Source: Euglena gracilis
Lineage: Eukaryota
Assembly (NCBI GenBank): GCA_039621445.1
Contig: CP154954.1
Location: 40,231,572-40,295,571, forward strand
Direction of reading: 5' to 3'
DNA length: 64,000 nucleotides
Positions 2,353 through 61,900 of this stretch are shown one piece after another. The notes below the pieces were generated by a model, which saw nothing but the letters and a program-made list of their open reading frames with translations, was not told the origin of the DNA and ran no database searches. The position numbers and the translations under genes were made by a program. Position 1 is the stretch's first letter; each line of letters starts with the position of its first letter.

Positions 2353-2403
2353 GGCTTCTCATACGCCCCTGCCACACTCGACGGACCGTTCTTCCCAGAG
2401 AAG
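2353..2403 (+). other. Candidate 51-nt exon (GFSYAPATLDGPFFPEK)
   Basis: Polypyrimidine tract plus CAG upstream, GAAG|GTGTGG downstream, length a multiple of 3. No homology recognised. Confidence 0.25.
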
Positions 2404-2899
2404 GTGTGGCACTGCTGTTATGCGGCCAAGGAGCGCTGACCTCACATATGGCAGGCGTTTTCCTTTTGAGGGCGATGCCAGTTGTGTGTTGCCCTGCTTG
2501 TTGGCCAAAGGAGCGGTTCGGCAGTCCAGGGCTCTAACAGGTGGGGAGAAGGGCCACTGGAGGCACCAATTCATCCCGAAAAATTTCTGAAATTTGCAAT
2601 TCGGGGGTGTGGTTCCGGTAATAATGGGGTTTCCATGACGGGGAACCCAGCTTGGTCCTTGGGGCGGGCACCCCCCCCCCCAGGCACCTCTCACCACCCT
2701 TGGCATTTTGCCATTTCGGCCCAAGATTTTTCCGGTGTGGAAAATGCTTTGCATTGATGATGTGGTTTTCTTTGAGAAGTTTGGTTGATCAAATTGGGAC
2801 CCCCAGTTAATCGCGGTTAATTGTTTATTCCCCGCTTCGGCCACCCTCTGTGGGGGTCCAGGCAGCACCTCTTTCCCAGCCGGTTCTCAAATTGGTGTG

Positions 2900-3578
2900 A
2901 AACCAAATTCCAGTAGTGGGCATGCCTGATTTTTGGAAAAAATTTTCCATATCTTGGGTTCGGTCGATTTGGCGACCGAAAATGTGGTGTTCCCCCGCTG
3001 GTCCAAACCACCCCCTATGCATGTGACGCTCCTTCCGCACCTTCTGCAGATCCATTGCAAGAAATGATGATTCATTGAGATTGAGCAATCACCATGCTTC
3101 GGACGAAACCTGATTTCGAAACAATTGAATATTTGGAAGACGATGACGCAGATTTGGATGACGGTTGTTATGAAGGTGACGTCTCTCACCACGTCAAAAG
3201 GGACAATATTGAGTGTTTTTGATTCAGCAAAAAAAGGCACAAGGTTTGTCGAAAGTCGAAAACAACCAGCCAATCTTGTTTTACCAATTTTTTGACCCCC
3301 ATTTTATTTTTGCCAGTCAATGGGAACCAAAATGTCGTAAAATGTGACACAAAGCTTTTGAAGCAGCCCTCGTTGGGGAACAATTGGAAAAGGACAACCC
3401 TGTGTTGGGGGATGCAAACAGGGAATTGGCAAACGGTGAATTGGATGAAATACTGGATCATTTTTTGAAGTGTGAGATTCAGGCAAGCTTTCCAGGAAAA
3501 GAACAGGAAAGATGTGTTTTAGAGAATTGGGAATGCCATCCACCACTAAGGTGTGTGTGGTCGACCACAAGCATTTGA
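2900..3578 (+). pseudogene. Dispersed repeat carrying a decayed coding-like segment of unknown product
   Basis: 2900-3385 is homologous to ~21180-21640. After TTCTGCAG it reads as protein-like text broken by frameshifts and stops (QFFDPHFIFASQWEPKCRKM*HKAFEAALVGEQLEKDNPVLGD...). Confidence 0.35.
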
Positions 3579-4015
3579 GTGGGGTATTTGAAATTCGATC
3601 GAAGGTTGGAGACAAAGTGCGACCAGCCCCCGGGACCAGGTCAGCTGGGTTCCCCACCCCCAAAAACCCCATTATAACTGGAACCAATGCCGAAAATACC
3701 CCACAATGGCAAAAGTTTGGCAATTTTTTGGTATAAATCGGGGCGGAAGGGGGGGGGGGGGCGTGGTTCTCGGGACCAACTGCCTCAATGCCAGGAATTG
3801 GGGGGTGCCAAAACGTGCGACCAGCCCCTGGGGCCAGGTCAGCTGGGTTCCCCACCCCCCAAAACCCCATAATGACTGAAACCACTGCTGAAAACACCCC
3901 ACAATAGCAAATTTTTGGCAATTTTTTTGGTATAAATCGGGGCGGAAGGGGGGGGGGCGTGGTTTCAAGGACCAGATTGCCTCAATGCCAGGAATTGGGG
4001 GGTGCTGAAACGTGC

Positions 4016-4231
4016 GGTACTTGTTCGCTGCACGACCGCCAGTGAATTATGGGGTTATTTGAAGGAGTAGGGTTAGGTGCGCAAATGGCCAGGTTGCGCA
4101 ACATGGCCATTTTGCGCACATGGCCATGTAGCGCAACATGGCCATTTGCGCACCTGACCCTACTCCTTCAATAACCCTAAAAAATCCGACTTGTAAAAAT
4201 TTCACTGGCGGTAGTGCAGCGAACAAGTACC
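4016..4231. mobile_element. 216-bp foldback MITE, Merlin-like (GG...CC termini, 8-bp TSD)
   Basis: TIRs GGTACTTGTTCGCTGCACGACCGCCAGTGAA / TTCACTGGCGGTAGTGCAGCGAACAAGTACC; flanks AAACGTGC / AAATGTGC; palindromic interior of TGCGCA and ATGGCCAT units. The superfamily is inferred from termini and TSD length only. Confidence 0.85.
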
Positions 4232-4886
4232 AAATGTGCGGCCAGCCCCCGGGACCAGGTCAGCTGGGTTCCCCACACCCAAAACCCCACAATAACTGAA
4301 ACCACTGCTGAAAACACCCTACGACAACAAAATTTTGGCAATTTTTTGGTATAAATCGGGGAGGAAGGGGGGGGTGCGTGGTTTCAAGAACCAGATTGCC
4401 TCAATGCCAGGAATTGGGGGGTGCCAAAACGTGCGTGGGACCAGGTCAGCTGGGTTCCCCACCCCCAAAAACCCCATAATGACTGGAACCAATGCCGAAA
4501 ATACCCCACAATTGCAGAAGTTTTGGCAAGTTTTTTGGTATAAATCGGGGCGGAAGGGGAGGTGGCGTGGTTCAAAGGACCAGATACCATTTTTTTTTGG
4601 TTTAAATCAGGGCAAAAGGGGGGGGGGGGGCCGTGGTTCTCGGGACCAGATTGCCTCAATGCCAGGTACTGGGGGGTGACAAAACGTGCGACCAGCCCCC
4701 GGGACCAGGTCAGCTGGGTTCCCCACCCCCCAAAACCCCATTATAACTGGAACAACTGCCGAAAATACCCTACAATGGCAAAAGTTTGGCAATTTTTTGG
4801 GAAAAAGGGGGGGGGAAGGGGGGGGGGGCGTGGTTTCAAGGACCGGATTGCCTCAATGCCAGGAATTGGGGGGTGCTGAAACGTGC

Positions 4887-24571: not shown

Positions 24572-25466
24572 GTTGGCACAGGAGGAGTTCTTTTTTGGAA
24601 TAAATATTACTTTTTATTGAAGTATATCATTTGATTATAATGCCACTCCTGCTCCTGAGGGGGGGGTTCTGCCAAAATGGCATTCATGTGGCCAGCCGGT
24701 CATGAAGGGTTTTCCGCTTGCCAACCGCCATGGTGGGTTCCCCACCCCCCTGCACCAGCGCCATGGACACTGCTCCCGTTCCTGTTCCACCGTCCCACTT
24801 TTTCAGGCTGCGCGACGCTCGGCAACCCCCAGCCCATCACCTGCAGAGCTGGCGATCCCTCCATGCCAGGGATCCAGTTCGGTTGGGTGTGTTTTTCGAG
24901 CGGTTCGGAGGGGTTGGCATGAAGGACCGGCGGGCGGCAAAAAAAATTTGGCAAAAGTGGCGTGGAAGAAATGGGCGTGCGAAATCCGGCCAGGCATTTC
25001 TTCCCATTTTTGGAGGAAGCCGCCAAATTTTTCCATTTTTTAAGAGTTTTTTTTTTTGAGCACTATCCTCCCCCACGCCCGATATTCCCTCCCAGCACCC
25101 CGATAACACACAAAAACGGCAAAGGTAACCGTTTTCATAACCCCCCCCAAAATCCTAATTTGGCTTCCTCCAATTTTTTCCCCCAAGTTTTCTTTGAGCA
25201 CCAACCCCCCCACCCCTTGTACTCCCTCCCAGCACCCCCAATTTAACACGTATAATTTCATAATTTCATAATTTCATTATAAACATATATACAATTATAT
25301 AGTTTCAGCCTGGGGCTTTTTTTGCAATTTTTTGCCAGGGTGCCAATGGGCCCACCTACTGCCACCACCAGACATGTGCTGTCCCTGCCAGGCATTCCTG
25401 ACCATTTGGACCAAGGTGGCTGGACCATTTAGTTGTACCTGTAGGTAGGCGGGTGGCAAGTCCGGC

Positions 25467-26350
25467 GTGGCCGAAGCGAGCAAATGGCCGCTGGCGTGGC
25501 CAAAGCAAGCAAATGGCCGCCGGTGTGGCCGAAGCAAGCAAATGGCCGCTGGCGTGGCCGAAGCAAGCAAATGGCCGCCGGTGTGGCCGAAGCAAGCAAA
25601 TGGCCGCTGGCGTGGCCGAAGCAAGCAAATGGCCGCTGGTGCGGCCGAAGCAAGCAAATGGTTGCTGGTGCAGCCGAAGCAATCAAATGGCCGCTGGTGC
25701 AGCCGAAGCAAGCAAATGGTTGCTGGTGCAGCCGAAGCAAGCAAATGGCCGCTGGTGCAGCCGAAGCAAGCAAATGGCCGCTGGCGTGGCCGAAGCAAGC
25801 AAATGGCCGCTGGTGCAGCCGAAGCAAGCAAATGGCCGCTGGTGCAGCCGAAGCAAGCAAATGGCCGCTGGCGTGGCCGAAGCAAGCAAATGGCCGCTGG
25901 CGTGGCCGAAGCAAGCAAATGGCTGCGAGTGCGGCCGAAGCAAGCAAATGGCCGCCGGTGTGGCCGAAGCAAGCAAATGGCCGCTGGTGCAGCCGAAGCA
26001 AGCAAATGGCCGCTGGCGCGGCCGAAGCAAGCAAATGGCCGCCGGTGTGGCCGAAGCAAGCAAATGGCCGCTGGTGTGGCCGAAGCAAGCAAATGGCCGC
26101 TGGCGTGGCCGAAGCAAGCAAATGGCCGCCGGTGTGGCCGAAGCAAGCAAATGGCCGCTGGTGCAGCCGAAGCAAGCAAATGGCCGCTGGTGCAGCCGAA
26201 GCAAGCAAATAGCCGCAGGTGCGGTCGAAGCAAGCAAATTGCTGGCTGCTAGCGCGGCCAAAGCGAGTAAATGGCCGGCGCGGCCGAATCAAGCAAATGG
26301 CTGCTTGTGCGGCAAATGGCTGCTAGCGCGGCCAAAGCGAGTAAATGGCT
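25467..26350 (+). repeat. 29-bp minisatellite, ~30 copies
   Basis: Unit GCCGAAGCAAGCAAATGGCCGCTGGCGTG with a variable last third; decays at the 3' end. Confidence 0.97.
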
Positions 26351-27000
26351 GGCGGTGCGGCTAAAGCGAAGAAGCAGGTGGCCAAAGTGCAGCAGCCACA
26401 AGCCACACAGCCAAAGCAATTGCTGTCTTCGGTGAGCAGGTTCAAACGGGTGGTGAACAAAATTCAGGGCAGGCTACAAGTGCCTGGCCGGCAGTTGCAT
26501 TATTGTGCGACGGCCCTGACCCATCCTGATAACCCTGCTGATGTTTGGTGGTGGTCAGCGTTGGGCCACAACTGGCTGCACCCACCGGTCGTGTGGTGGT
26601 TTGTGTGTTGCCTGCTTTTTGTTGTTTTCGGAGCTACCGATTCCCCCCCTGAAGGTTAGACAGGTTTGCCGGACGTCATTTACCCCATTTTGTTGGGGTT
26701 TTTGTGCGGTGTTGTGTTCCGTGGGACACATCCATCGGGGGTCGCCAGGCGGCAGTGGCGCCACCGCCGGCTGCTGGAGCCGCCGAAGCGGGCCCCGGCC
26801 GCAGGGGTCGACCCCGCAGCTCGGGGCCGCCGCGCGTCGGGACGTCACTGGCCCACAGCGCAGCGCAGCGGGCGAAGGAGCCCGCCGTGCCCATGGCGTT
26901 GCCCCCAGACGCCTGAAGACCTGAAGGTGTGGCACTGCCCCGAAACTCGATGCAGTCTTTGCTTCCATCCAACCCCAGGGTGCTGAGCGAGCGTTTAGGG

Positions 27001-48249: not shown

Positions 48250-48960
48250 GAGGATCAGAGAGCCTGTGAGCAGAGCACACCCCCCACCCAGCATCCAGAA
48301 TTACAGAATGCTCTATCCCCCAGGGCATTAAGGCCAACACTCCCAACCCAGCCCACAGAAAATCAGGTCATTGGGGAAAAAAACTTCATGGAGGAAAAAT
48401 GGGGAAACACCACCCTACACCAGAGACCAAAAGAGTCTAATATGGTGGCAGAAAAATCACCCCCCCCTTCAAACTGCAAGCTAAGCAAAAATGGAATCCA
48501 AACCCCTGGGAACGGTCCCCAAAATTTTCCACGAATCCAAAAACCGGAGCCAATTTGGCCCTGAAACAGGCAGAAAAAATTGTGCTGGATTACGAGAAAC
48601 CCGGTTCAGCCAATAAGGTGGTGGATTCAGACACCACACATAATTCCATGGTTTCTGATTTCCAAACCAGAAGAGGGACCAACAAAGTGGAGAATGATCT
48701 GCAGCTGCAGAGAACTGAACCAACATTTTACTGTGCAAACCTTCAAGCTTGATCACATCCAGCAAATATTTCCTGTCCTGGCAAAAGACCACTGGTCACC
48801 CAAAATATGTTCAGTTTAGAATGGAAAAGGATGCCGACTTTCACATCCCCGTCGACCAGCCCCTAAGAACTTTTTAAGACATCAACTGGGGGGGGGGGGG
48901 GGCAGGCCTTGTAATTCCAGGAAGGCTGTTTTCGCCTAAACACCATGCCCCAGATTTCTG
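48250..48960 (+). pseudogene. Decayed DIRS pol 5' fragment (RT N-terminus)
   Basis: PWFLISKPEEGPTKWRMICSCRELNQHFTVQTFKLDHIQQIFPVL is homologous to 49868-50062; frameshifted and truncated. Confidence 0.8.
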
Positions 48961-49334
48961 CATTTGTCATTTCTGCCGTCCAAGGTGTCCAGAAGGAGTT
49001 TGATTTCCTTGAACTGATTTTTTCGGTGAACTGGCTTGCCGAAATGATTTCAGCTTGGGTGCAGCCAAGGGCAGTCGTCCCCGGTTCTTGGACCCCGCTG
49101 GGGTCCGGTGGTATCCGGTGGTATCCGGGCCCAGCCAGGCGCTCGGGATCTTTTTCCCCGTCGCCATGTGGGTTCACGACATGATGTGATGTACTCATTG
49201 CTCACTCTGCGGTCGTTGGCTTCATCTATGCAAATGGCCACCAAATATTTGCCATTGCGAATCACATCCTGTAACTTTTTTTGACCTGATGGAACGCACA
49301 TTTTTTGAAAAAAATCGCAAACCTTTCGCACTGC

Positions 49335-49654
49335 CTCGAGGCAAACCGAAAAAAGATGAAGGGACACCGAGGGCAAAGCACAAAGACCTTGTGAGGCCAT
49401 GCTTTGCTCGCCGGCTGTTTGTTGTTTTGGATTGTGCTCCGCTGGGATAGGAGTCCTTGCTTAGTGCCGCCTTGCCGGAGTTGGCGGATGATGCTCCGAC
49501 GTGGCGACGTGGCTTCTTGCCCCTTGCCCCCCACCCTGCGCTGCCCCCCCTGGCCCCCATTTTCTTCCGACCGCTTTTGAAAACAAAATTTTCTGTCGAG
49601 GGCTTTTGAACACAAAATTTAATTTACGGGTGGCGCGGTCGGGCTCACAAGGTC
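49335..49654 (-). mobile_element. Isolated 3' end (ICR tail plus right ITR) of a DIRS element
   Basis: Diverged reverse complement of 52492-52795, ending in CCTCGAG. Confidence 0.8.
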
Positions 49655-51600
49655 ATTTTGCTCAAAGGTTGCAAAAAAGCTTGAAATGGTGGACAAAAAG
49701 TGCCTCCCCCCCCCCAACAAGATGTCAACTCATAAGGGGTGGCATTCAACCCCCCTGGGTCAGCCCACCAAAATTGTCCACCCACCCCAAAAACAGAGCA
49801 AATTTGAACCTACCCCAAGCAGAAAAAATACTGCTGGAATACGAAAAATCTGGATCCGTAAAAGAGGGTGAGGGATTCAACCACCCAGCACCTGATCCCC
49901 TGGTTTCTGATTTCAAAACCAGAGGGGGGGGGGCAGACAAAATGGAGATTAATAAGCGATTGCAGGGAAATAAATAAAAGGTTCCAAGTGAAACCCTTCA
50001 AGCTGGATCACATCCAACACATTTTTCCAGTTTTGGAAAAGGCCACTGGGCAGCAAAAATAGACATGAAGGATGCCTATTTTCATATTCCAGTAAGTCCA
50101 TACCTAAGGCCATTTTTAAGGCATCAGGTGGGGGGGGGCAGACCTGGGAATTCCAGGCAGGCTGTTTTGGCCTGAATGTAATGCCCCAAATTTTTATGTC
50201 AGTAATGAAGACATTCGAAAAACTGTGGAGGAAAAGGGGCATCGAGGTATTTATTTGCCTGGACGACATTTTACTGGTGGCCCCGACGCAAAACATCTTA
50301 CAAAATCACCTGAACACAGTGGTCAGGGATTTAATCAAATCAGGGTTCAAAAAATATGTGAAAAAGTCCACCCTGCAGCCCACCAAAATCGTAAATCATC
50401 TTGGATTTCAGCTAAACTTCCAAGAGGGAAAATTACATGTGCCCCCCCAGAAAATAAAAACAGTAAAAAAGCAGCTGGGAAAAATGGTGAAAAAAGCTTG
50501 CATGTCAAAAAAGCAACTGGCTGCCATTTTGAGCCAAATCAGATGCAATCTAATCGCCTTGCCCTTTCTAAGGGCCTTTACGGGTGCCCTGGCAGTTTTT
50601 TTGGTGGAAAATTCCACTGACCCCTGGGACTCAAAAGACCCCATTTCCCAAAGAATAAAGGACCAATTAAGAGAAATAAAAAATTCTGCTGGACACCTGG
50701 GGGTGCAGACCCTTCCCCCAAAGTGCAACCAGGGAGTTGCACTCAGACAGCAGTACCCATGCCCGGGGGGGGGGGGGGGGGGGCTGGACTTTGGAACAGG
50801 CAAAATTGTGCAAGAATTTTGGAGGGAAAACTCCATTTTGCACATAAATGCAAATAATTAAGTGCAGCAATAAGCACAGTTCAAAGCCTCAGCCAGCCAG
50901 GGGAAACTGTGTCCCTATCCGTGGACAATCAAGTAATTTTACTATTACTTAACAAAGGGGGGGGGGGCAGAAAAGGCCCTTTCAATTCCACGCTAAGACC
51001 TTTCTTCAAATGGTGCATGGAGCACAACATAAACCTGCAGGTAAAGTGGGTCCCCTCCAAGGAATGCCTGGCAGACCCCATAAGCAGGTGGGAAATGGAC
51101 AGAGGGGATCATTCCGTGGACCCCAACTTTTTCAATGGCTAAGGCGGCAGTTCAAAAATTGCATCAACCAAAAAACAGACCTCTTTGCCTCACCAGGCAA
51201 CAAAAAACTGCCACAATTTGTGGCCAGGTGGCCACACTGGGGAGCCACAGCAGTAGATGCATTACAATGTCCACTGGACAACATGGGTGATCTTTATGCA
51301 AACCCCCCTGGTCTGTAATCCAAAAATTTCTCCCCAGATTAAAAACGTTTCCACGGGCCAAAGTTTTGACGGTCACCCCCTACTTGGTTTCAGCCACATG
51401 GTGGTCCCAGTTAATAAAAATGAAAGTTCCAGGGACCCCCTGCCTGAAAATCACCCCCTACATGGGTATGTTCACCAATTGCAGGGGAGAAAAAATGCCA
51501 CCCCCAGGTGGCCCCTGCTTTGCATGATTTGCTCAGGCAAATTCTGGAGGGGAAACAAACACAAAATACAACCAATAATTATTTCTGGGAAGAAACTCCA
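49655..51600 (+). pseudogene. DIRS pol (RT-RNase H-adenine methyltransferase), multiple frameshifts
   Basis: Pieces in ORFs 49868-50062, 50181-50861, 50909-51142 and 51010-51318 align with the pol of the minus-strand copy. Confidence 0.88.
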
Positions 51601-52440
51601 GCTTAAAGCCTTATCAAAGCGCTTTTACGCTTTTATGGGTGATTTTGGACAAAATGGGGGTACCCCCCCCCCCGCCACCACTCCCCAGTGGTTGACGCTT
51701 TAATTCAAATGTTCCAGTTTTCAAAGGCTCAAGCACGCAATGCATACAGTGCTATGCTTTTGATCCCTGGCTTTGGTGGCCTAAGGTTCCGTGCCACGTT
51801 GGCACCTTATAAAAGGCTTTGGAACCAAAACCTGGTGAAATATGGTGCATTCTGCGATCCCCTCCCAATCCTCCTGGGGCTGGCACAGTCCCCCCTGCCC
51901 TCTGATATATATACATTGTGTACACAACTCATTTTCTGTTCACGAATCCTCTGTTTATACAGAAGCTCATATTTGGCACAGGTCAAAAGGACCACCAGTG
52001 TGTTTGGGGGGGGGGCACCCTATATCAAAATTCAACTTAAAGGTCAAAAACTCCATAAGTGGGAGCGAGTTGTATCCATTCCCGAATGCCCCCAAATCAG
52101 TCCCTTTCATTTAATGATGTCTTATGGGGAGCAACACGTTCCTTTATGATACCTGAGGGCCCCCTGTTAATTACGTTAAAATCCCCCTACAAAGCCATTA
52201 AGGCAGATACCATTGCTTCTATCACCAAGAATTTTTGACCAACAGGGGGTACCCCCCCAGATTTAGGGATCCCACTCCACCAGAGGAGCAGGGGTTGGTT
52301 TATTCAAAAAATTGGGCCTTTCTGCCCAAGAAGTTTGTGAAATTGGTCGATGGAAGGGGTGGAGGCTTTCACAGCCAAATATCAAAGAGGGTGCTTTGGA
52401 AGGTGCCCTGGCCCCCCCTTTTTCAGTGCACAATCTGACC
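51540..52440 (+). pseudogene. DIRS tyrosine recombinase, frameshifted
   Basis: ORF 51688-52149 (QARNAYSAMLLIPGFGGLRF...KRLWN) matches the minus-copy recombinase (TARNAYAAVLLLPGFGSLRF...KRKWN). PHSTRGAG lies at ~52270. Confidence 0.88.
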
Positions 52441-52917
52441 TCACAATGGCAAAGTGCGGAGCCCGAGGTGTCACCAAGGGCGAAGCACAAAGACATTGTG
52501 AGCCCGACCCCCCCCCCACCCATATGCAAAAATTTGTCTTCAAACGCCCTCGGTCAGAAGAGGGGGCCAGGGGGGGGGGGGAGGTGGGGGGGAACCCCCC
52601 AGGGAAAAAGAAAGCGCCATGGTCGCCACGTCGGAGACAATGCAGCCAACTCCGGCGAGGCGGCACTAACCGGGACCTCCTAACCCAGCGCAGCGAACAA
52701 TCACACAACAAAGCGCCGGAGAGCAAGGCATGGCATCACAATGTCTTTGTACTTCGCCCTCGGTGTCCCTTCCTCCCCTTTCGGCTTGCCTCGAGGGAGT
52801 ACAAAGGCTTGTGCTTTGTCGGGCAGGCACCCCATAGCACCCGATCCGACCCCCCCCCCCCCCGGGGGTGTGGTCATCATCAAGGGTAAAGTGCGGAACC
52901 GAGGTGTCTGGTACGCG

Positions 52918-54315
52918 CTCGAGGCAAACCGACAAGGCAGGAAGGTGCACCGAGGGCGAAGTGTCACCCCATTTTTCTTCCATGGAATTTATTTCCTGGA
53001 GAAGCTGATTTTGGGAGAGCTGGGCTGGGGGTGATGGACATTTTTGGATTTTTTGCAACCTTTGATGGAGGTGGGTGTCTCCCTTTATTTCCTCCATTGA
53101 ATTTATTTTCTGGATAAGGTGATTTATGGGGTGGGCTGGGCTGGGGGTGTTGGACATTGCACCCCTAGGTCCCCTAGGGCTTGGGCCCTTGGGAAAATAT
53201 TTTTTTTTCTGTGGGGATGTGCATGCATTCTCTCCCTCTCTGCTCACCTCTCTGGAGGATCTGGTTTTTGGAAGACATACCATAGGGCTTAATGCCCCTG
53301 TTTGGCCTATCTGGTCTTCTCCATGTTAATGTGGTTGGTTGACATACCATAGGCGGGCCTCTGTGGGTTCCCCCCTTGATTGAATAATTGGGAATTGAGA
53401 AATAATTGTTGGAGGGGTTCCTGCCCCTCCCTCCATAAGGGCCACTGTTGGTCCCTTTTCCTCCTGGGGCTGGGTCATTGAAAGGGCCACTGTTGGTCCC
53501 TTTTTCCCCCATTTTTGGCAGACGGACTCTGTGGGTCCCTCGGGAGATTTTACCAGCAGCTTCCTTAGCTCCTTTGTGGCCACTGTGGGTCCACCCTGCT
53601 GGTCTCCAAGGTTTTCATGTATATTTTTTTCCCCCATAATCCATCTGTTTGTCTTTGTGGTGTTGACTCCTTGGCCTTGATTCCATCTCCCCCTCTTCTG
53701 GCCAATTTGTGCGACAGGCGACTGGATATGCCCCTGATGTGTGGGCTTTGATTGTCCAAATGTGTAGTAATTTGGGCCTCCATGGCCCATCCTTTGCCCA
53801 CCAAGGGCTGGGGCTGACCTCTGTCTTCTGGACCTTCTTGCCACAGTGGTCCAAGGACCGTGGCCGTCACTGGGGGCGGGGTTGGGCTGGGAAATTTTTG
53901 GGGTGGGGGTCTGGGGGGGAAAACGGCCACGGTTTGCCACGTGTCGACCGCGTCTCCAAGCTCTCCAGCTTCTGCGGACACTGCTCCAGGACGTCCGTGG
54001 CCATGCAACTCAAATTTCTTTTCCACTTCATTGCTCATTGAAGTCAACATTGAAAATTGAGTTCTCAATTGATATTCGTCTGGTTCGTGTCCTTCTGGAT
54101 ATTTTATTGAAAGCGACTTCTTTTCTCGGGTCTTCTTCGTTCGTGAACTCTCTCCTTTCTTCTGGGTGTCGAAGGGCAAGTTAGGAGTCAGCCAGCTCCG
54201 GCGAAAAAAGGCACCAAGCGGGACCTCCTAACCCAGGGCAGCTAACAATAACACAACAAAGCGCCGGCGAGCAAGGCGTGGCCTCACAATGGCAAAGTGC
54301 GGAGCCCGAGGTGTC
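52918..54315 (-). mobile_element. Internally deleted non-autonomous DIRS (family 2) retaining both termini
   Basis: Left ITR 54191-54315 starts GACACCTCGGGCTCCGCACT. The 5' ORF has DGHGPWTTV, shared with family 1. At ~52965 it joins directly to the right-ITR terminus ending CCTCGAG. Confidence 0.8.
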
Positions 54316-54510
54316 GGGTGGGATCCGGTGGCTGTTCTTGCCTGCTTGTGTGGAAAATTCATGAATAAGCCAAGCATGGGGCTCGGACTCCCACGACAGA
54401 GGAAGGGGGAGGAAGGGACCAAGAGGGCGAACACAAGAAGATGGTGAGGTCCTGCTTTCCTTGCCGGCTGTTCTGTTCTGGTGTGTTTGTGCGTGCGCGG
54501 GGGGTGCTTC

Positions 54511-55857
54511 TTACTGCGCCTTTGTTGCCGGAGTTGGCGATGATGAGGCCTCCTCCGACACCTTGGCGAAGCTGAACCGTCGTGGCCCCGCCCCCCCCCC
54601 CCCCTCCCATGGTCGCTTGGTGGGGGGCCCCCCCCTCGATGGGGATGGTTGTCTCTTTTTTGTGTGTTTCTGGGTGGGTGGTTGGGGCTGCTTGGTCGGG
54701 GGTCCCCTTTCTGGTTGGGATGTCTTTCTTTTTCTGCTGATTTTTTGGGTGGGAGGGTTGGGCTCACCATCTTCTTGTGCTTCGCCCTCTTGGTCCCTTC
54801 CTCCCCCTTCCTCTGTCGTGGGAGTCCGAGACCATTCGGGCTCCGCACTGCGAGATGGTGAGGTACTGTGCACCCCTTTTTGGGCCATAATATTTTGAAT
54901 TTTTGATACGACCCCAAGTCGCAAATAATGGGCTTGGAAGGCCCCAAAATTTTTCCACTGACCCAGCTGCTGGACTTCTTCCACTTGCAAACCAGCATTT
55001 TTCCACCATAAGACCCCAGCCCCTCTGGTGCTGTGGGGTTTCCAATGGGTGGTGTCCACCCCCCCCTCTTGCAGAATTTCTTTGGTAAGGGAATTCACCC
55101 TTTCTGATGTCAAAGGTCTTTTACCATCCAAAGACCATAACAAATTATTTTTGTGTCCAACCATGTGGGCTGTCCTTTCCACATATTCTTTCAATAAATG
55201 CCAGGGGCTGATGAGGGGGGTGTGTGGCAAATTCAAAATCTCCTCCCATCTTGGGAATTGCCACCCTTTCCTTTGTACTAAAATGAAAATTTTTTCTCCC
55301 ACGAAACTGATTTTTCGCTGTGTTCTGGCTAAATCAACCCCCCTGTGGAGGGCTAACAGCCTCCAACAGATGATGAGTCTGTTTCTGAGCTCTTTCACAG
55401 ACAGGTCGGAGAGGGGTTTGGATTTCCTGATGATGTTTTCTAAGAAATCAGTGGGGTCCCAGAAATGGGCATACTTGCAGACATTGGAATTCCACTTCCT
55501 TTTCAATGGAGACAAAAGAGGGGAAAACCTCAATGACCCAAACCCTGGGAGTAATAACACTGCTGCATATGCATTTCGTGCAGTGTTGAGGCTGTGGGCA
55601 GCCAAATCAAGGATGGCCTCGGCCATCTTGTGGACTGTGCAGTCCTGCAGGGGCACCCCTTTGTGCAACAATTGGCCCACCAATGTCCTGAAGGCTGAAT
55701 CATATCTCTTGACATTTCCCAGATTTTTTATGTAAGTGTCGATACTGGACATCGAAACTTCCTGGGATTGTAATATTTGCCTGACACAATCAAACAGGCC
55801 AATTTCCACCTTGGGGGGGGCATCTCCTCCCCCCAGCAGTTGGTGAATAGACCCCAT
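54511..55857 (-). CDS. Tyrosine recombinase of the DIRS element (probably the C-terminus of a much longer ORF)
   Basis: Catalytic pattern LHRGVDL (R), KPHSTRGAG (HxxR), GQW and AHYLR (Y). Confidence 0.93.
   Translation of the reverse strand: MGSIHQLLGGGDAPPKVEIGLFDCVRQILQSQEVSMSSIDTYIKNLGNVKRYDSAFRTLVGQLLHKGVPLQDCTVHKMAEAILDLAAHSLNTARNAYAAVLLLPGFGSLRFSPLLSPLKRKWNSNVCKYAHFWDPTDFLENIIRKSKPLSDLSVKELRNRLIICWRLLALHRGVDLARTQRKISFVGEKIFILVQRKGWQFPRWEEILNLPHTPLISPWHLLKEYVERTAHMVGHKNNLLWSLDGKRPLTSERVNSLTKEILQEGGVDTTHWKPHSTRGAGVLWWKNAGLQVEEVQQLGQWKNFGAFQAHYLRLGVVSKIQNIMAQKGVHSTSPSRSAEPEWSRTPTTEEGGGRDQEGEAQEDGEPNPPTQKISRKRKTSQPERGPPTKQPQPPTQKHTKKRQPSPSRGGPPTKRPWEGGGGAGPRRFSFAKVSEEASSSPTPATKAQ
54763..54864. 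other. DIRS internal complementary region (ICR)
   Basis: 54763-54830 is the near-exact reverse complement of 54382-54448. 54830-54864 is the reverse complement of 59044-59078. Confidence 0.95.
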
Positions 55858-58719
55858 TGGGGGGGGGTACCAACAAAACTTTGCTGCCTGGCTTTCTGAT
55901 TGCCATTAATTGGCGCCACCATGATGTTGAAGCCCAGTGGGGTACGATCAACAGACAAGTCAGGTCTGGGTTTACCATTAATCTCTGAACCCATTGGGGA
56001 ATGATGCTCCAGGGGGGGTTTGCATAAACTGGGGGGAGGCCCCTCAAATCTGCCTTCAAGGCATCCACCAGCCAAGCCCCTTGGTGGGGGTATCGACAAA
56101 CAAACTTGGGGAATTTTTTGTTGCTGGGTGTGCAAAACATGTCCACCTCTGGGGTGATGTCCTGTCTGAAAAATTTCAGTATTTGGTGAAAGATGTTTAG
56201 GTTTAGGGTATAATCCCCTGGGTCCTTTTGCCCCCTGGTCAGGGAGTCTGCCAATTGCTCTTTTGTGGGAACCCAAACCACCTGCAAATTGATTTGCTTT
56301 TCTTGGCAATGATACAGCAGGGGTTTTAAAATGGAATTTAGGTAGGGCTTTTTGCCTCCCCATTTTGTTAGATAACTTACAGCCACTTGGCTGTCCACAT
56401 GAAGCATTATGGTTTGTTTTGGTTTTGCCAGACTTTTTACTGTCTCCACTGCTGACATCAATTCTTTTTGGTTGATGTGAAGGATGTGCAGGTCCCTCCA
56501 AAAATCCTGCACTTTTTGGCCTGAGTTTTTGTCCAGCCCCCCCCACTGCCAGGTGCTGCTGTCTGAAAACAGATCCTGAGAGGCCTGGGATTGAAAGGCT
56601 CTGCCCACACCTGGCTGCAAAAACGCTTTTAACTCCACAATTTGATCTTTGACCCCCTGGGGAATGGTTAGGGTGTGGTCCCAACCCCACTTTGTGTGCA
56701 AATCCACCATTTTGCAAAGTTGATCTGTCAGAATTCTGAGAAATGGCATGGAGACTAAATAGCTTCTGACCTGCCCCACAATAGAGCTGAGTTTTCTGCA
56801 GCTCATTTTTTGTGCTGTGAGCACTTTCCCAGCTCCTTTCTTAAGGATTTTAGTTTTTCCTGTGGGATTTCCAGCTGGCCCTTTTTCAAATTGACCCACT
56901 GGCCCAAATGTTTTATCTCCTGTGTGGGTTCCAGACAGGATTTGGGGAGGTTTAATCTGAAACCTGCCAATAAAAGGTCCTGCTTTATTTCTGCCAAATG
57001 TTGGGCTGCAGTCTTTTTGCTGGGGGCTAACAGCAAAATGTCGTCTAGGTAGATGAAAACTACCTTTCCCTCCTTTCTCCACTTCCTTTCCCAGACTCTC
57101 ATGAGAGTCATAAACTTTTGTGGCAGGCTGCTGATGCCAAAACATGCAGCTTGAAACTGCCAAGTTTCCCCCCCCACTTGCATGCAGACATGTTTTTCCA
57201 GGCTGCTGTGCAGTTTTAGGTGAAAATAAGCATCTTTCAGATCTATTTTTCCACAGAACCATCCTTTTCTTAGGTATGGGAAAATGTTTCCCATGTGTTC
57301 CAGTCTGAACTTCTGGGGGGTGAAGTGGAGATTTAACTGTCGACAATCTGAGATTAATCTTTCTTTTGTCTTTTCCCCCTCTTTTTTGGAAAGGATGAAA
57401 TAAGGGACAAAATGTTTTGCCTCCTCTGGGGTGATTTGCCTGGTTGCCCCTGCACATTCGTATTCCCTCAGAATTTTTTGGGCAGTCATTATTTCTTGGG
57501 GTGTCTTGAAGGGAACTTTTAATGACATCTGAGGGGGGAGGGGGAGATCTGCCATAACCCCTTCCCTTATCAGGTTTAATACCTCTCTGCTGGCTCCTGC
57601 CTTGACCCAATGGGGGATACTGGCCTGCAGGGCCTTGTAGGGGGGCACCCCTGGGTGTAATGTATCTGGGGATTCCACAGGCCCCATCACAGGGGTCCTT
57701 CCCCTGGGCTGCCCCATCACTGGGGGCCCCTCTGGGTGCCCCATCACTGGGGCTGCAGCTGGCCCTGCCATAGGGCTTTTCAAAGACAGGCTTTCCCCCT
57801 GTTTTGGAATGATGGGGGAAGGTCTGTGGTGGGGTGGTACATATAATGCTGGGCTGATTATCTTCTGGGGGGGGCCTGCCTGAGCCAATCTTGGGCCTCC
57901 CCCCCAAGGGCTGATGTGGTCTTGATGGTTTTGGCCACCACTTGCCTTCAGGGCCCTTTGGCCTCCAGAGGCACTCAGGCCTGCTTGGCCCCCATTGGCC
58001 TTTTCTCCAGGACTTCTCTGTCCATTTGCCTCCATCTGGCTGCCAGTGGCACACAGGCCTGCTTGGCCTCCATTGGCCTTCTTTCCAGGACTTTCTCTTC
58101 TCTGTCCTTCTGGGTTCCCAGTATAGGCCACCATGGCCTGTATTTGGCATTGGCTTGCTGCTCCTGGGAGGTTTGTGTCTGAAATTGCTGGGGGGAAAGT
58201 TGGACATACCTTTCCCCAATGGGATCTCTCCAGGCTGGGGTACTGGCTGCCATAGCCTTGCCCCTGGGCCCACTGCCCTCTTGAATAATGGCTGCCATAG
58301 CCTTGATTCTGGGCCCCAGGCCCTGTTGAATGATGGCTGCCATAGCCTTGATTTTGATTTGATTCCTTTGGATTTCTGATCTCCCTTGAGAGGCTGCCAT
58401 AGCCTTTGCTTCCTCCCCTGGAAGGGGAGGAACTGAGAAAAAGGGGTGGAGTCTGTTGGACCTGTGATGGTAGTCTCCCTGTGTCTTCTCTTCCTGACCA
58501 CAGTTGTCCATGGTCCATGGCCATCATTTTGAATGGGGGAGTTTGAAATCTTTGATTTGCTGGGGGGTGGGGGGGTTGCGATGGCCACGGACTGACGTGC
58601 TGCTGCCGCCTCATCTCCTTCTGCAGCTGCTGCTGTGACTTCACCTTCCCCAGCTTCAGTTGACTTCTTGGAAGTTCTTTGCAGTTCTTCTTGAAATTCA
58701 GAGTTTCTTTGAAATTCAT
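55728..58719 (-). CDS. DIRS pol: reverse transcriptase - RNase H - N6-adenine DNA methyltransferase-like domain; two 1-nt frameshifts (~56825, ~55862)
   Basis: RT: KIDLKDAYFH, CFG, YLDD. RNase H: FSDSS, HINQKEL, VDSQVA, LADSLTR. MT: VDMFC, YANPPW, LIVPHW. The frames switch at GGGAAAG and at a C9 run. Confidence 0.93.
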
Positions 58720-59249
58720 TCTTCATGGAAGTCCTTTGTTGATGTCTGTGTTGCTGTTCTTTGAATTTCTTGTTCCAGTTGAACTTGAGGCGTTGAATTC
58801 TTCCTTCAGGAAGTTGAAGTTCCGAAGAAAGTTTGGTCCACCAGTTGGTAAAAGTATTGGTTCTCGGGAAGGTAGTACTCCTCGAAAAGCAATTCCACTT
58901 GAACTCGTGGTAGTAAAACTCTTTCTCCTTGAGGTCGAAGGGCAGAATTAGGATCAGCCAACTCCGGCAACAAAAAGCAGTAAGAAGCACCCCCCGCGCA
59001 CGCACAAACACACCAGAACAGAACAGCCGGCAAGGAAAGCAGGACCTCACCATCTCGCAGTGCGGAGCCCGAATGGTCCTCCTATCCCTCTCCACCGGAG
59101 GGGCAGGGTTGGGTAGGTCCCTTTTTTTCTTCCCATGGGTAGGAAATAATGATTTTCCTTGTCTCCCATAAAAAAAAAGACTGTTGAAGGTTTGGAAAAG
59201 AACGTGCAGGAATTGGAACTGAGAATGTTGGGTTCTGAAAACAGTGGGT

Positions 59250-59756: not shown

Positions 59757-59769
59757 NNNNNNNNNNNNN
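59757..59769. other. Assembly gap (13 N)
   Basis: Run of N. Confidence 1.
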
Positions 59770-60235
59770 GGTTTAGGGTTGGGTTTTGGTTTAGGTAAAC
59801 CCTAACCCTAACCGTAACCCTTACCCAAAACCCAAAACCCTAACCGTAACCCCCCCCCCCCTAGTCGTACGACCACCCCTCATTTACGACCACCCCCCAG
59901 CCACAGGTTGCAGGTCATGGGGGTGTTATGACCACCTCCCCCGGTCACAGGTTGCAGGTTATGGGGGTGTTACGACCCCCCCCCCCCGGTCACAGGTTGC
60001 AGGAACCCGGTCGTACGACTAGGGGAGGGGGGGTAACCCTAAACCGTGACCCTAACCCTTACTCTCTAGACAACCCTCTCTGTGCCGACACCAGCCGTAT
60101 CTTCTGACCCTTTTTTTTGTGCTTTCCCTGTCCATTAGTGACCCAAAGAGGGCCAAAAATAGGGTTAGGGATAGGGTTAGGGAAAGGGTTAGGGTTATGG
60201 TCACATTGCCCTAACCCTAAACCTAACCCTAACTC
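59770..60235. repeat. Degenerate interstitial telomere-like repeats (TTAGGG / CCCTAA)
   Basis: GGTTTAGGG... followed by CCCTAACCCTAA at 59770-59850, and again TAGGGTTAGGG...CCCTAACCCTAA at 60160-60233. Confidence 0.75.
59850..60033. mobile_element. 184-bp MITE with C-rich TIRs inserted in telomere-like repeat
   Basis: TIR C12-TAGTCGTACGACC / GGTCGTACGACTAGGGGAGGGGGGG; flanked by TAA (or GTAA). Internal CACAGGTTGCAGG repeats also occur at 28600-28925. Confidence 0.8.
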
Positions 60236-61900
60236 GGTACTTGTTCGGTAAGGGACCGCCAGTGAAATTTCTCTAAGTCGGTTATCATGGGGTTAATTGA
60301 AGGAGTAGGGTTCAGACATTCATTTAGTGTGGTACACCAAGGTTGTCATTTTGTGGTTCACTGTGGACACCACAAAAATTTTTGTGGTTCACCTGTGGAC
60401 ACCAAAAATTTTTTTGTGGTTCACTTGTGGACACCAAAAAATTTTTTGTGGTTCACCTGTGGACACCAAAGTAATATTTGTGGTTCACATGTGGACACCA
60501 AAAAATTTTCCTCCGCCTGCTGACATTTGCATCATTTTCTTTCTCATCAACAGCAATGAAGCAATCTTCTTTGAACATGTTTGACTCAGGCGGCGTAAGT
60601 TGGCCAAAAATTCTGGTGCTCTAAAAACAGAACAGGAAGCGGAAAACCACTTCCAAAAAGGGTCATAGTTTTCGATTTTTTTGAAGAGGTTCTGATTTTA
60701 CCTATACAGTCGAAAACAGACCTAAGAAGGCCAATTTACTTTCGAATTCTAGTAATCAACAAAACCAATCAAGAAATACATGAACAGGAGGAACCGACAA
60801 AAACAAGCGTTGTTTCTGCTGCCGCAGGCCCCGAAGGAACGAAACAGAAAAATTAAAAAATGGAAGCGGTAAATATTGCATTCCGCTTCAAAAGCAGGAG
60901 ATGTGCAACGAAAACTGAACGCAATGAATCATACATAATGTAATGTAAAAAAATATGCATAATGTTTGCACACCAAAAAGGAAGCGTAAAACCGCTTTGA
61001 AAGAATCCGTAAAAAAAATAGTATAAATTGAAATGATCAACAATGATCACCAAACGACATTCCAATCCCAATAACAATGAAGAACGTTAACATTTATGAA
61101 ATTTATGAAGATAACAGAAACTGAACAAACTGAACAGAAATTAAATGTCACTATCCAAAGTGCATAATGCAAATACGTCAAACCACGTGGAGACAATTGC
61201 ACAATTTACGAAGGGTAGAACAGGCGAAACGATACAGACCTTCTGTTCATTTCCTCGTGCTTCACTTGTAAGGACATTTCGACATGACATTGGCGCAAAA
61301 CCTGCAAAAAAAAACAGAGCAAATATGAAGCGGTTATCTGTCGCCTGTTTCTGCTTGCATGAAGCGGAATTCCGCTTCATCGACGCCAGTACTTAACTTT
61401 TTGATGGTATCCTTGTTGGGTAAGTTGTCTATACAGCACGTCTGCTTGAGAACTGCCACGCTTCGTGGATTGAGCCGGGGCCAAGGCTCAGAATGTGGCT
61501 GAGGTGTCAATCCGCCTTTAGGTGCAAATTTTTTTTTGATCCTCAATCAATTTTTGTGGACCACAAAATTTTTTGTGGACACCACAAAAATTTTTGTGGT
61601 TCACCTGTGGACACCAAAAAATTTTTTGTGGTTCACCTGTGGACACCAAAAAAAATTTTGTGGTTCACCTGTGGACACCAGAAAAAAATTTGTGGTTCAC
61701 ACGTCTTTTGTGAACCACACTAAATGAATGTCTGGTAGGGTTAGGTGCGCACAAGGCCATTTTGCGCTACATGGCCATGTTGCGCAACATGGCCATGTAG
61801 CGCAAAATGGGCATGTGCGCACCTAACCCTACTCCTTCAATAACCCTAAAAATTCCGACTTAGAGAAATTTCACTGGCGGTCCTTTACCGAACAAGTACC
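60236..61900. mobile_element. Merlin-like MITE (relative of 4016-4231) interrupted by a nested insertion
   Basis: TIR GGTACTTGTTCGGTAAGGGACCGCCAGTGAAATTTCTCTAAGTCGG and its near-perfect inverse; perfect 8-bp TSD CCTAACTC. Confidence 0.9.
60313..61734. mobile_element. 1.42-kb non-autonomous hAT-like element nested in the MITE
   Basis: Perfect 21-bp TIR CAGACATTCATTTAGTGTGGT; perfect 8-bp TSD GTAGGGTT; ~30-bp subterminal repeats TTTTGTGGTTCACCTGTGGACACCAAAA at both ends. Confidence 0.92.

What the first reader, a model, noticed from the sequence alone, without database searches (positions are those of the whole stretch)
54511..59053. DIRS element with ~3 kb of fully double-coded DNA: pol nested inside an ITR-to-ITR recombinase ORF
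Seen: the four long minus-strand ORFs (55790-59095, 56803-58719, 55728-56717, 54511-55857) are pieces of two frames offset at the same two points. Adding one A at GGGAAAG (~56825) and one C in the C9 run (~55862) gives (i) an unbroken 998-codon RT-RNaseH-MT frame at 58719-55728 and (ii) an unbroken 1515-codon frame from the ATG inside the left ITR (59053) to the stop inside the right ITR (54511), ending in the tyrosine recombinase. I checked 56825-56717 by hand and it has no stop in the second frame. The decayed plus-strand copy also keeps long open alternative frames (50225-50620). Known: YR/RT overlap occurs in DIRS-1. Inference: there is no separate gag ORF, and a single N-terminal-domain/YR polyprotein spans the whole element, which looks like an unusual architecture.
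Basis: partly seen in the sequence, partly recalled or inferred. Interest (0 to 1): 0.8.

Follow-up and report, generated by a model that had tools for sequence, protein, structure and literature searches.

The report
DIRS retrotransposon with known ORF overlap
This is a slightly damaged copy of a tyrosine-recombinase (DIRS1-type) jumping gene whose recombinase reading frame runs without stops across the whole polymerase gene; the overlap is real and kept by selection, but it is an already described hallmark of this transposon class.

Summary
On the minus strand, about 59107-54379, lies a 4.7-kb DIRS1-like retrotransposon with inverted terminal repeats, an internal complementary region, an RT-RNaseH-methyltransferase pol and a tyrosine recombinase (YR).

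Pol is split into three frames by two single-site frame breaks (56824-30; C-run 55859-67). The frame one base upstream (-1) shifts at the same two sites and has 0 stops over 952 pol codons. Synonymous-codon shuffles expect about 28, and the third frame has 60.

Piednoel et al. 2011 record a "long ORF overlap" in 14 of 28 DIRS1-like elements. Among 27 clusters of metagenome relatives, 14 have no -1 stop across pol. In five of these a gag homologue, the bridge and YR form one ORF with pol nested inside. Proteins P0094 and P0104 (1345 and 1452 aa) do the same and align colinearly with the three window pieces.

Third-base conservation shows that openness is conserved, not the sequence. What is particular here is that the 5' region matches no relative's gag. 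This scan reached the same verdict on other DNA (Naegleria).

The parts
54379..59107 (-). Whole DIRS1-like element, about 4.73 kb. The ends are approximate.
   Evidence: The outermost stretches complementary to the internal complementary region end at about 59107 and 54379.
58957..59107 (-). Left terminus. The conserved inverted repeat is about 58957-59055. The outer part, 59040-59103, is about 80% complementary to the ICR. It contains the first ATG of the long frame at 59053.
   Evidence: I1, I3; 97% over 100 nt.
54379..54538 (-). Right terminus. The conserved inverted repeat is 54439-54538. The outer part and extension, 54379-54431, are 98% complementary to the ICR. It contains the stop of the long frame at 54511-54513.
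   Evidence: (I1, I2), and (stop at 54513).
54781..54868 (-). Internal complementary region. It is complementary to both termini and lies inside the C-terminal tail of the long ORF.
   Evidence: (I2 54781-54833; I3 54805-54868). The tail motif (SAEPEWSRTP...GG..QEGEAQ) is shared with P0091, P0094, P0104 and P0105.
56827..58719 (-). Pol piece 1: a low-complexity N-terminal extension followed by reverse transcriptase (YLDD).
   Evidence: Pfam RVT_1 E 7.9e-14. 67% identity to P0005.
55865..56826 (-). Pol piece 2: RNase H and the methyltransferase-like domain (NPPW).
   Evidence: C-terminal third of P0001. tblastn of P0005, P0026, P0032, P0037 and P0015.
55728..55864 (-). Pol piece 3: the last ~45 residues of pol (GLFTNCWGEEMPPPRW...) and its stop.
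   Evidence: 62% identity to P0005 697-748.
56824..56830 (-). First frame break. Pol and the long frame both change frame here.
   Evidence: P0005 and P0006 read ELGK-V/I-LTAK across it. Length variants and loose ends occur at 56827 in other copies (tables 4 and 7).
55859..55867 (-). Second frame break, in a run of nine C.
   Evidence: P0005 reads through it. A length variant at 55859 occurs in other copies (table 4).
56828..59053 (-). Long-frame piece 1. It holds a family-specific N-terminal domain (motif DGHGPWTTV), tandem repeats, and then the bridge over RT in pol's -1 frame.
   Evidence: P0094 462-647 and P0104 457-625 align to it. The N-terminal part is conserved with 54314-53842.
55863..56840 (-). 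Long-frame piece 2: the bridge over RNase H and the methyltransferase-like domain.
   Evidence: P0094 741-963 (33%), P0104 789-1015 and P0009 329-578 (37%) align to it.
54511..55905 (-). Long-frame piece 3: the tyrosine recombinase (HSTR ... HY) with a tail that runs through the ICR into the right repeat.
   Evidence: Pfam Phage_integrase E 3.6e-5, which is below the gathering score. 1094 relatives at E<=1e-3.
57954..58093 (-). Two copies of a 78-nt (26-codon) tandem unit in the 5' double-open region.
   Evidence: D5, 85%. Joints that skip 69-300 nt here, and lower depth at 58014-58171 in other copies (tables 2 and 5).

Best explanation
This is a frame-broken copy of a very abundant DIRS1-like tyrosine-recombinase retrotransposon of the two-ORF type. 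In intact members, one long ORF fills the space between the terminal repeats. It has an N-terminal domain, then a roughly 950-codon bridge written in the -1 frame of pol, then the recombinase. The RT-RNaseH-methyltransferase ORF is nested inside it.

Shown:
- the anatomy of the element;
- the two frame breaks;
- the stop depletion in the -1 frame;
- conservation of that depletion in distant relatives;
- the lack of consistent constraint on the bridge sequence.

Inferred (about 50%): selection keeps the bridge open because the recombinase domain has no entry of its own. On this view ribosomes that start upstream must read through the bridge to reach it. The bridge would then be a Gly/Pro/Ser/Arg/Lys-rich linker whose sequence is free. 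Pol would be made from its own AUG, or by a +1 shift out of the long frame.

This copy itself can make neither full product.

The confidence of 0.8 is for the identity of the element and the selected open frame. The translation mechanism stands at about 0.5.
For: Identity as a DIRS1-like element:
- RT hit and YLDD motif.
- RNase H and methyltransferase-like region colinear with P0005.
- YR with HSTR and HY motifs and 1094 relatives.
- Inverted repeats plus an ICR complementary to both ends.

Stop depletion in this copy: 0 stops observed against about 28.5 expected. None of 2000 shuffles reached 0, and the third frame has 60 stops.

Conservation of the open frame in relatives:
- Of 35 metagenome loci with a pol match of at least 1300 nt (27 clusters at 80% identity), 14 clusters have 0 stops in the -1 frame and 27-81 in the +1 frame.
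- Five clusters have 1-4 -1 stops, and these also carry stops in pol itself.
- Eight clusters have 20-41 -1 stops.
- Shuffles of five zero-stop loci expect 11-34 stops.
- Where the recombinase domain is matched in these zero-stop loci it lies in the -1 frame, except in L010.

One ORF with pol nested:
- L060 has a long ORF at 794-4882 (1362 aa) around pol at 1764-4073.
- L003, L043, L044 and L045 have the same arrangement.
- Their N-terminal parts are homologous to the separate gag ORFs of L020 and L004.
- P0094 and P0104 align colinearly with the three window pieces.

Bridge sequence is free:
- Identity of the third base at four-fold sites in the overlapped pol is higher than in the non-overlapped YR in 5 of 10 pairs and lower in 5 of 10. 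Only the closest pair shows an excess (0.58 against 0.48 and 0.36).
- Bridge composition is 54-56% G+P+S+R+K+Q and 19-20% hydrophobic. The real domains have 39% and 31-35%.

Literature: PMC3266345 and PMC6681497.
Against: - There is no evidence of translation. RNA-library contigs (X17 covers 30 of 30 bins, X15 27 of 30) may be DNA carry-over.
- The start codon is uncertain. The ATG at 59053 sits in the repeat, and the neighbouring related fragment has no Met at that place. The next in-frame ATG is near 58735.
- A database search with the bridge found nothing among proteins of 643-2048 aa. That search has a word-based prefilter.
- The YR Pfam score (24.1) is below the gathering score (27.1).
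- An open frame with free sequence would also fit explanations that need no fusion protein.
- In the contigs laid, the alternative length forms at the two break sites make up only 11% and 15-31% of the spanning depth. The broken form may therefore be common in the family, which the simple picture of one dead copy does not predict.
Confidence: 0.8

Rival explanations
1. The open second frame is a by-product of base composition or codon usage, not of selection.
For: GC is near 50%, and the 5' third is low-complexity and repetitive, which can lower stop frequency.
Against: Shuffles that keep the protein and the codon usage expect 18.2 + 10.3 stops, and none of 2000 reached 0. The RT segment alone (258 codons) expects 7.3 and has 0. 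The third frame has 60 stops. Eight relative clusters of similar composition carry 20-41 stops in the same frame.
Confidence: 0.01
2. The two frame breaks are assembly errors at short homopolymers, and the genomic copy is intact.
For: Both breaks sit in homopolymer runs. Copies with other lengths at exactly these places exist in the read sets (table 4).
Against: The same short-read-derived contig sets also carry the window's length at both places, as most of the spanning depth. The copy also differs from the family majority at many single bases (table 3: 40 shown, 378 more not shown), as an aged copy would. Contigs from a repeat family cannot be assigned to this locus, so the question stays open for this one copy.
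Confidence: 0.15
3. The recombinase is reached by a -1 ribosomal frameshift from pol near its 3' end, giving a Pol-YR fusion. The openness further upstream is incidental or has another cause.
For: YR is in the -1 frame of pol in this element and in nearly all relatives scored. For Ngaro elements, Poulter and Butler proposed frameshifting in the short -1 overlap. I saw this only as a quotation in PMC13003380. The eight clusters with many -1 stops still overlap pol by 330-685 nt where it could be measured.
Against: It does not explain why the -1 frame stays stop-free for 1.8-3.3 kb upstream in 14 clusters. It also does not explain why that frame begins with an ATG 0-34 codons after the upstream stop and carries gag in five of them.
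Confidence: 0.15
4. The bridge is an overprinted gene product with a function of its own. One possibility is a basic, disordered nucleic-acid-binding region that stands in for the missing gag. It would be selected for composition rather than sequence.
For: The composition is strongly biased and low in hydrophobic residues. The closest pair, L045/L060, shows some excess third-base conservation in the overlap. This element lacks a recognisable gag.
Against: There was no consistent synonymous constraint in the 10 pairs. The bridge gave no Pfam family and no database relatives. Bias of this kind is also what overprinted frames show by default.
Confidence: 0.15
5. One reading: a repeat-to-repeat N-terminal-domain/recombinase polyprotein with pol nested inside is a new, unusual DIRS architecture.
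For: Reviews describe three ORFs. I found no sentence in the papers I could read that spells out a fused gag-YR ORF.
Against: The same two-ORF layout occurs in five distant clusters and in two database proteins. The long overlap itself is tabulated in Piednoel 2011. [quoted passage not shown]
Confidence: 0.05

Closest known systems
DIRS1-like retrotransposons scored 'long ORF overlap: Yes' by Piednoel et al. 2011 (for example AcDIRS2, XtDIRS2/3, GaDIRS1/2, TnDIRS1a, DIRS1-2)
   Same: Inverted terminal repeats plus an ICR. An RT-RH-MT pol. A YR ORF that overlaps pol extensively, with the catalytic domain in the non-overlapping 3' end. Size is within the published 3974-6283 nt range. (PMC3266345, Background and section 10 with Table 3.)
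   Different: No gag-like ORF or domain was recognisable here. The long frame is open from inside the left repeat to inside the right repeat. I could not see Additional File 3, so the exact ORF limits of those elements are unknown to me.
Metagenome relatives L060, L045, L044, L043 and L003, and proteins P0094 and P0104 (unnamed records)
   Same: Two ORFs only, with one ORF of 1313-1452 aa ending in YR and pol nested in its +1 frame. In L060 and L044 the long ORF fills the space between the repeats. P0094 and P0104 are colinear with the window's three pieces.
   Different: Their N-terminal 250-450 aa are gag homologues of two types. The window's 5' region matches neither. Pol identity to the window lineage is only 25-50%.
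Dictyostelium DIRS-1, the founding member
   Same: ITR and ICR structure, an RT-RH-MT pol, and a YR ORF overlapping pol (Figure 1 legend and Background of PMC3266345).
   Different: It has a separate gag ORF, so three ORFs. Sequence relatedness to DIRS-1 was not measured here.
Ngaro-like elements, including newt Bou1 and Bou1Like1 (PMC13003380, passages)
   Same: A DIRS-type RT with the recombinase in another frame. Bou1 is reported without gag. The longest ORF of Bou1Like1 ends in a recombinase.
   Different: Ngaro elements have split direct repeats and no methyltransferase domain. The window element has inverted repeats, an ICR and the NPPW domain.
DIRS1-type elements of Naegleria noted earlier in this scan (e1-673409, e1-684469, e1-636573, e1-684256)
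   Same: A stop-free -1 frame across pol leading to the recombinase. Openness is conserved but not the sequence.
   Different: A different host and family. Some of those have gag followed by a single same-frame stop, as L026 does here.

Membership tests
DIRS1-like retrotransposons (DIRS order) | Reverse transcriptase of the DIRS/Ty3-related type with a Y(L/I)DD motif | tested here: met
   FIYLDDILL in P0002. Pfam RVT_1 E 7.9e-14, 52.3 bits against a cut-off of 29.6. 85 relatives, the best at 68-73% identity.
DIRS1-like retrotransposons (DIRS order) | RNase H followed by a methyltransferase-like domain in the same pol | tested here: met
   The C-terminal third of P0001 plus the end of P0003 is colinear with intact pol P0005 to its last residue. 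The NPPW motif is present. Pfam itself gave no family for this part.
DIRS1-like retrotransposons (DIRS order) | Tyrosine recombinase instead of a DDE integrase | tested here: met
   HSTR and HY motifs. Pfam Phage_integrase E 3.6e-5, but 24.1 bits is below the 27.1 cut-off. 1094 relatives at E<=1e-3 and 129 at E<=1e-30.
DIRS1-like retrotransposons (DIRS order) | Inverted terminal repeats | tested here: met
   79-nt arms 100% complementary, about 100 nt at 97%.
DIRS1-like retrotransposons (DIRS order) | Internal complementary region matching the outer ends of both termini | tested here: met
   54781-54833 is 98% complementary to 54379-54431. 54805-54868 is 80% complementary to 59040-59103.
DIRS1-like retrotransposons (DIRS order) | A gag-like first ORF | tested here: not met
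   There is no separate ORF upstream of pol. The gag parts of P0094, P0104 and P0032 give no match in the element. There was no blastp hit to either gag type at E<=1e-3, no Pfam family and no Atlas lead.
DIRS1-like retrotransposons (DIRS order) | Terminal trinucleotide complementary to the 3-bp circular junction, and no target-site duplication | not tested
   The exact ends were not fixed, and the left outer terminus is only about 80% matched to the ICR.
DIRS1-like subgroup with 'long ORF overlap' | A YR ORF open across most or all of pol, with the catalytic domain in the non-overlapping 3' end | tested here: met
   0 stops over 952 pol codons, read piecewise across the two breaks. The YR domain lies downstream of the pol stop at 55730.
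Ngaro-like retrotransposons | Split direct repeats (A1 ... B1 A2 B2) and no methyltransferase domain | tested here: not met
   The repeats found are inverted with an ICR. The direct-repeat families belong to a neighbouring fragment. A methyltransferase-like region is present.

The most novel reading that the evidence does not exclude
This hugely amplified family may be a gag-less DIRS1-like lineage. On this reading the only upstream product is one protein of about 1,500 aa: a short family-specific N-terminal domain, a freely evolving disordered bridge read from pol's -1 frame, and the recombinase. A large share of its copies may also descend from a master that already carried both frame breaks, moved in trans by intact relatives. 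That would make it a natural test case for whether the conserved stop-free bridge of DIRS elements is truly translated.
Probability: 0.2. Interest if true: 0.5.

Novelty: new member of a known kind. Interest (0 to 1): 0.25.

Why it matters
Overlaps of 2-3 kb kept open across lineages that share only about 25% pol identity are among the longest double-coded stretches in eukaryotic DNA. In the papers I could read, nobody has shown how the recombinase of DIRS elements is translated.

This locus adds no new principle. With its relatives it does give a clean comparative statement:
- The -1 frame is either fully open (14 clusters) or ordinary (8 clusters).
- Gag may be fused to that frame or stand as a separate ORF.
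- Only openness is conserved, not the sequence.

For annotation, it warns that the four ORFs here are one broken element and not four genes. The longest ORF (1170 codons stop to stop) is a chimera of the bridge and RNase H/methyltransferase.

Tried and rejected
- Own genome. None is held, so no census of copies was possible.
- Bridge search. Residues 84-825 of P0001 searched against proteins of 643-2048 aa gave no hit. The prefilter needs shared 5-mers, and P0094 and P0104 were later found through the YR domain. The blank therefore says little.
- Pfam. No family for the long-frame pieces (P0001, P0003) or for the 451-aa 5' region.
- ESM Atlas on the 243-aa N-terminal region. No usable hit.
- Other long ORFs in the window. 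Eight of the nine tested had no Pfam family.
- Synonymous-site test for constraint from the second frame. No consistent signal: 5 of 10 pairs were higher and 5 of 10 lower.
- RNA evidence. X17 (metatranscriptome, 154 contigs) and X15 (74 contigs) cover most bins. Contigs cannot show strand or level, and DNA may be present. This is not counted as expression.
- The 'leaf litter' label of X17, at 24% of words, is no evidence of habitat.
- Papers. Goodwin and Poulter 2001 and Poulter and Butler 2015 are not held.
- Supplements. They are closed. Piednoel's Additional File 3 and the Xenopus paper's Tables S1-S2 may list ORF limits that bear on whether fused gag-YR ORFs are already in print.
- Structure prediction, complex prediction and RNA-family tools were not used. 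No claim here rests on a fold or an RNA.

Full report
WHAT IS THERE

I name frames by the top coordinate mod 3.

- Frame 0 is open 58722-56806 and again 55905-54514.
- Frame 1 is open 59302-55793.
- Frame 2 is open 56840-55731.

The translations and Pfam place the domains as follows.

- The RT (YLDD; RVT_1 E 7.9e-14) is in frame 0.
- The RNase H and methyltransferase-like region (NPPW) is in the last third of the frame-1 ORF.
- The last ~45 pol residues are at the end of the frame-2 ORF.
- The recombinase (HSTR ... HY) is in the second frame-0 ORF. Its Phage_integrase match has E 3.6e-5, which is below the gathering score.

So pol runs frame 0, then 1, then 2. The other open frame runs 1, then 2, then 0, always one base upstream of pol. 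Both shift at GGGAAAG (56824-30) and at a run of nine C (55859-67).

An intact relative, P0005 (748 aa, 68% identical in RT), reads straight through both places. They are therefore breaks in this copy and not features of the family.

Inverted repeats are present, with 79 nt at 100% and about 100 nt at 97%. An internal complementary region at 54781-54868 matches both outer termini. Together these complete a DIRS1-like anatomy of about 4.73 kb.

IS IT MORE THAN CHANCE?

Over the 952 pol codons outside the last piece, the -1 frame has 0 stops and the +1 frame has 60. Shuffling synonymous codons among positions keeps the protein and the codon usage. Under that shuffle the -1 frame had mean 18.2 and 10.3 stops for the two segments, with minima of 9 and 3. 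None of the 2000 shuffles reached 0. The RT core alone (258 codons) expects 7.3 and has none. Composition does not explain the result.

RELATIVES

No whole genome is held for this window. A scan of metagenome contigs with an RT alignment returned 80 loci.

I dropped 45 loci whose longest pol match to P0005 spans under 1300 nt. The other 35 fall into 27 clusters at 80% identity.

- 14 clusters have no stop in the -1 frame across the pol match, and 27-81 stops in the +1 frame.
- 5 clusters have 1-4 stops there. These also have stops in pol itself and look like decaying copies.
- 8 clusters have 20-41 stops, which is ordinary.

Shuffles of five zero-stop loci expect 11-34 stops. Where the recombinase is on the contig in the zero-stop loci, it lies in the -1 frame in all but L010. 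That frame is open 1.8-3.3 kb back over pol.

LAYOUT IN THE 14 ZERO-STOP CLUSTERS

- Five clusters (L003, L043, L044, L045, L060) have only two ORFs. One ORF of 1313-1427 codons has an N-terminal part homologous to the separate gag ORFs of L020 and L004. Pol is nested inside it.
- L017 has a long ORF that starts 736 nt before pol, but without gag homology.
- L004, L020 and L026 have a separate gag. L001 has a gag remnant in a third frame.
- Four contigs (L010, L028, L038, L059) are too short to tell.

In L060 and L044 the long ORF fills the space between the repeats.

A full-library search with the recombinase ORF found 1094 relatives. Several are long proteins with the recombinase at the C-terminal end. 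I fetched three of them. P0094 (1345 aa) and P0104 (1452 aa) have a gag-like N-terminus, a bridge and YR. They align colinearly with the window's three pieces. For P0094 the matches are 462-647 to frame 1, 741-963 to frame 2 and 970-1335 to frame 0.

P0009, a frame-shifted prediction from another relative, also reads the bridge over RNase H and the methyltransferase-like region, at 37% identity.

The C-terminal tail through the ICR into the right repeat is shared with P0091, P0094, P0104 and P0105.

IS THE BRIDGE SEQUENCE CONSTRAINED?

Pol's third codon base is the bridge's first. Selection on the bridge protein should therefore raise third-base conservation in the overlap.

I scored four-fold sites at identical residues in ten locus pairs. 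The overlap scored higher than the non-overlapping recombinase part in 5 pairs and lower in 5. Only the closest pair (L045/L060, 75% pol identity) shows an excess: 0.58 against 0.48 and 0.36.

The bridge is 54-56% G+P+S+R+K+Q and 19-20% hydrophobic. The folded domains are 39% and 31-35%. Openness is conserved, and sequence hardly so.

WHAT IS PARTICULAR HERE

The 5' 1.3 kb matches no relative's gag, no Pfam family and no Atlas cluster. The first ~190 residues of the long frame are still conserved with a neighbouring decayed fragment at 54314-53842, at 28-58% identity and with the shared motif DGHGPWTTV. That stretch is therefore coding.

From 58722 on, both frames are open through a repetitive region with a 78-nt unit.

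The ATG at 59053 lies at the edge of the conserved repeat. The neighbouring fragment has no Met at that place, so the true start is uncertain.

THE FAMILY IN SEQUENCING RUNS

Fourteen DNA runs of one coded organism hold 74-84% of the element's sampled words. I laid four runs.

- 85,863 contigs of X1 and 76,701 contigs of X2 fit at 90% identity or above. In X1, 22% are at 99% or above, 41% at 95-99% and 37% at 90-95%. This is a very abundant family with young members.
- Copies of other lengths exist at both break sites. They hold 11% of spanning depth at the first site in X1 and X2, and 31% and 15% at the second.
- Both variants change the length by the amount, modulo three, that puts the pieces in register.
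- At the second site, the few RNA-library contigs that cover it all carry the variant.
- The rest of the depth appears to share the window's lengths. The broken form may therefore be a subfamily trait and not private to this copy. Contigs cannot settle this.

COMPARISON WITH WHAT IS KNOWN

- Piednoel et al. [quoted passage not shown] They score 'long ORF overlap' Yes in 14 of 28 annotated elements, including lizard, frog and fish elements.
- PMC6681497 (passages) says the YR and RT/RH ORFs are frequently extensively overlapped.
- PMC9210276 (passages) describes three ORFs with several levels of overlap in Xenopus.
- PMC13003380 (passages) reports a newt DIRS-group element whose longest ORF ends in a recombinase, and another without gag.

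I found no sentence that spells out a fused gag-YR ORF. The main reviews are not held and supplements are closed.

Earlier notes of this scan on Naegleria elements reached the same verdict. I re-derived it here independently.

HOW IT LIKELY WORKS

Shown: an element of known class, two frame breaks, and a selected, conserved, sequence-free open frame that links the 5' region to the recombinase.

Inferred (about even odds): ribosomes that start upstream read through the bridge to make the recombinase as the C-terminal end of a long protein, and pol is made from the nested frame. In its favour, the long frame starts with an ATG 0-34 codons after the upstream stop in the two-ORF relatives.

Rivals are a late -1 frameshift from pol, a function of the bridge itself, or a benefit of an uninterrupted ORF to the RNA. 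None is excluded.

VERDICT

This is a new member of a known kind, of modest interest.

Noticed in passing
window 48637-52800 (+): A decayed DIRS-like copy of a different family, 30-47% amino-acid identity to the main element. P0104 839-1366 aligns to it in a single frame at 50923-52473, so its bridge and recombinase were also one frame. That frame now carries stops.
   Followed up: partly
window 53842-54314 (-): The 5' fragment of a third DIRS-like copy abuts the right end of the main element. It shares the N-terminal-domain motif DGHGPWTTV and repeat-like stretches (direct repeats D4 and D6).
   Followed up: partly
window 59757-60233: A 13-N gap at 59757-59769 is followed by degenerate CCCTAA/TTAGGG-type arrays in both orientations. 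This is telomere-like repeat sequence just outside the left end of the element.
   Followed up: no
window 60362-60489: A 32-nt tandem unit that is itself palindromic (TGTGGACACC-A/T run-GTGGTTCAC). There are at least four units.
   Followed up: no
window 25295-26364: A stretch of about 1 kb is open in five of six frames. It is probably low-complexity repeat.
   Followed up: no
window 57929-58230: Other copies of the family skip 69-300 nt here, and depth drops about five-fold at 58014-58171. The number of 78-nt repeat units varies between copies.
   Followed up: no
L026 252-4172: Gag (335 aa) and the 970-aa recombinase ORF are in the same frame, separated by one TGA followed by CTA. This is either a stop read-through arrangement or a single mutation in a two-ORF element. 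An earlier scan note proposed the read-through arrangement for Naegleria.
   Followed up: partly
L001, L004, L020: In the three-ORF relatives each ORF lies in the -1 frame of the one before (gag, then pol, then YR). In the two-ORF relatives gag and YR share a frame and pol is +1 to it.
   Followed up: no
P0009 (protein of an unnamed contig) against window 56504-55755: In this 62%-identical relative the bridge frame also runs on into the last ~45 pol residues. Its contig therefore changes frame at the site homologous to the window's C-run break. Either the site is a recurrent indel hot spot or the coincidence is unexplained.
   Followed up: no
P0032 (1050 aa) and L001 2-397: P0032 carries the P0094-type gag fused in frame to pol rather than to the recombinase frame. 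Twenty residues of its gag are identical to an ORF at the start of L001. This is either a frame-shifted copy or a gag-pol form.
   Followed up: no
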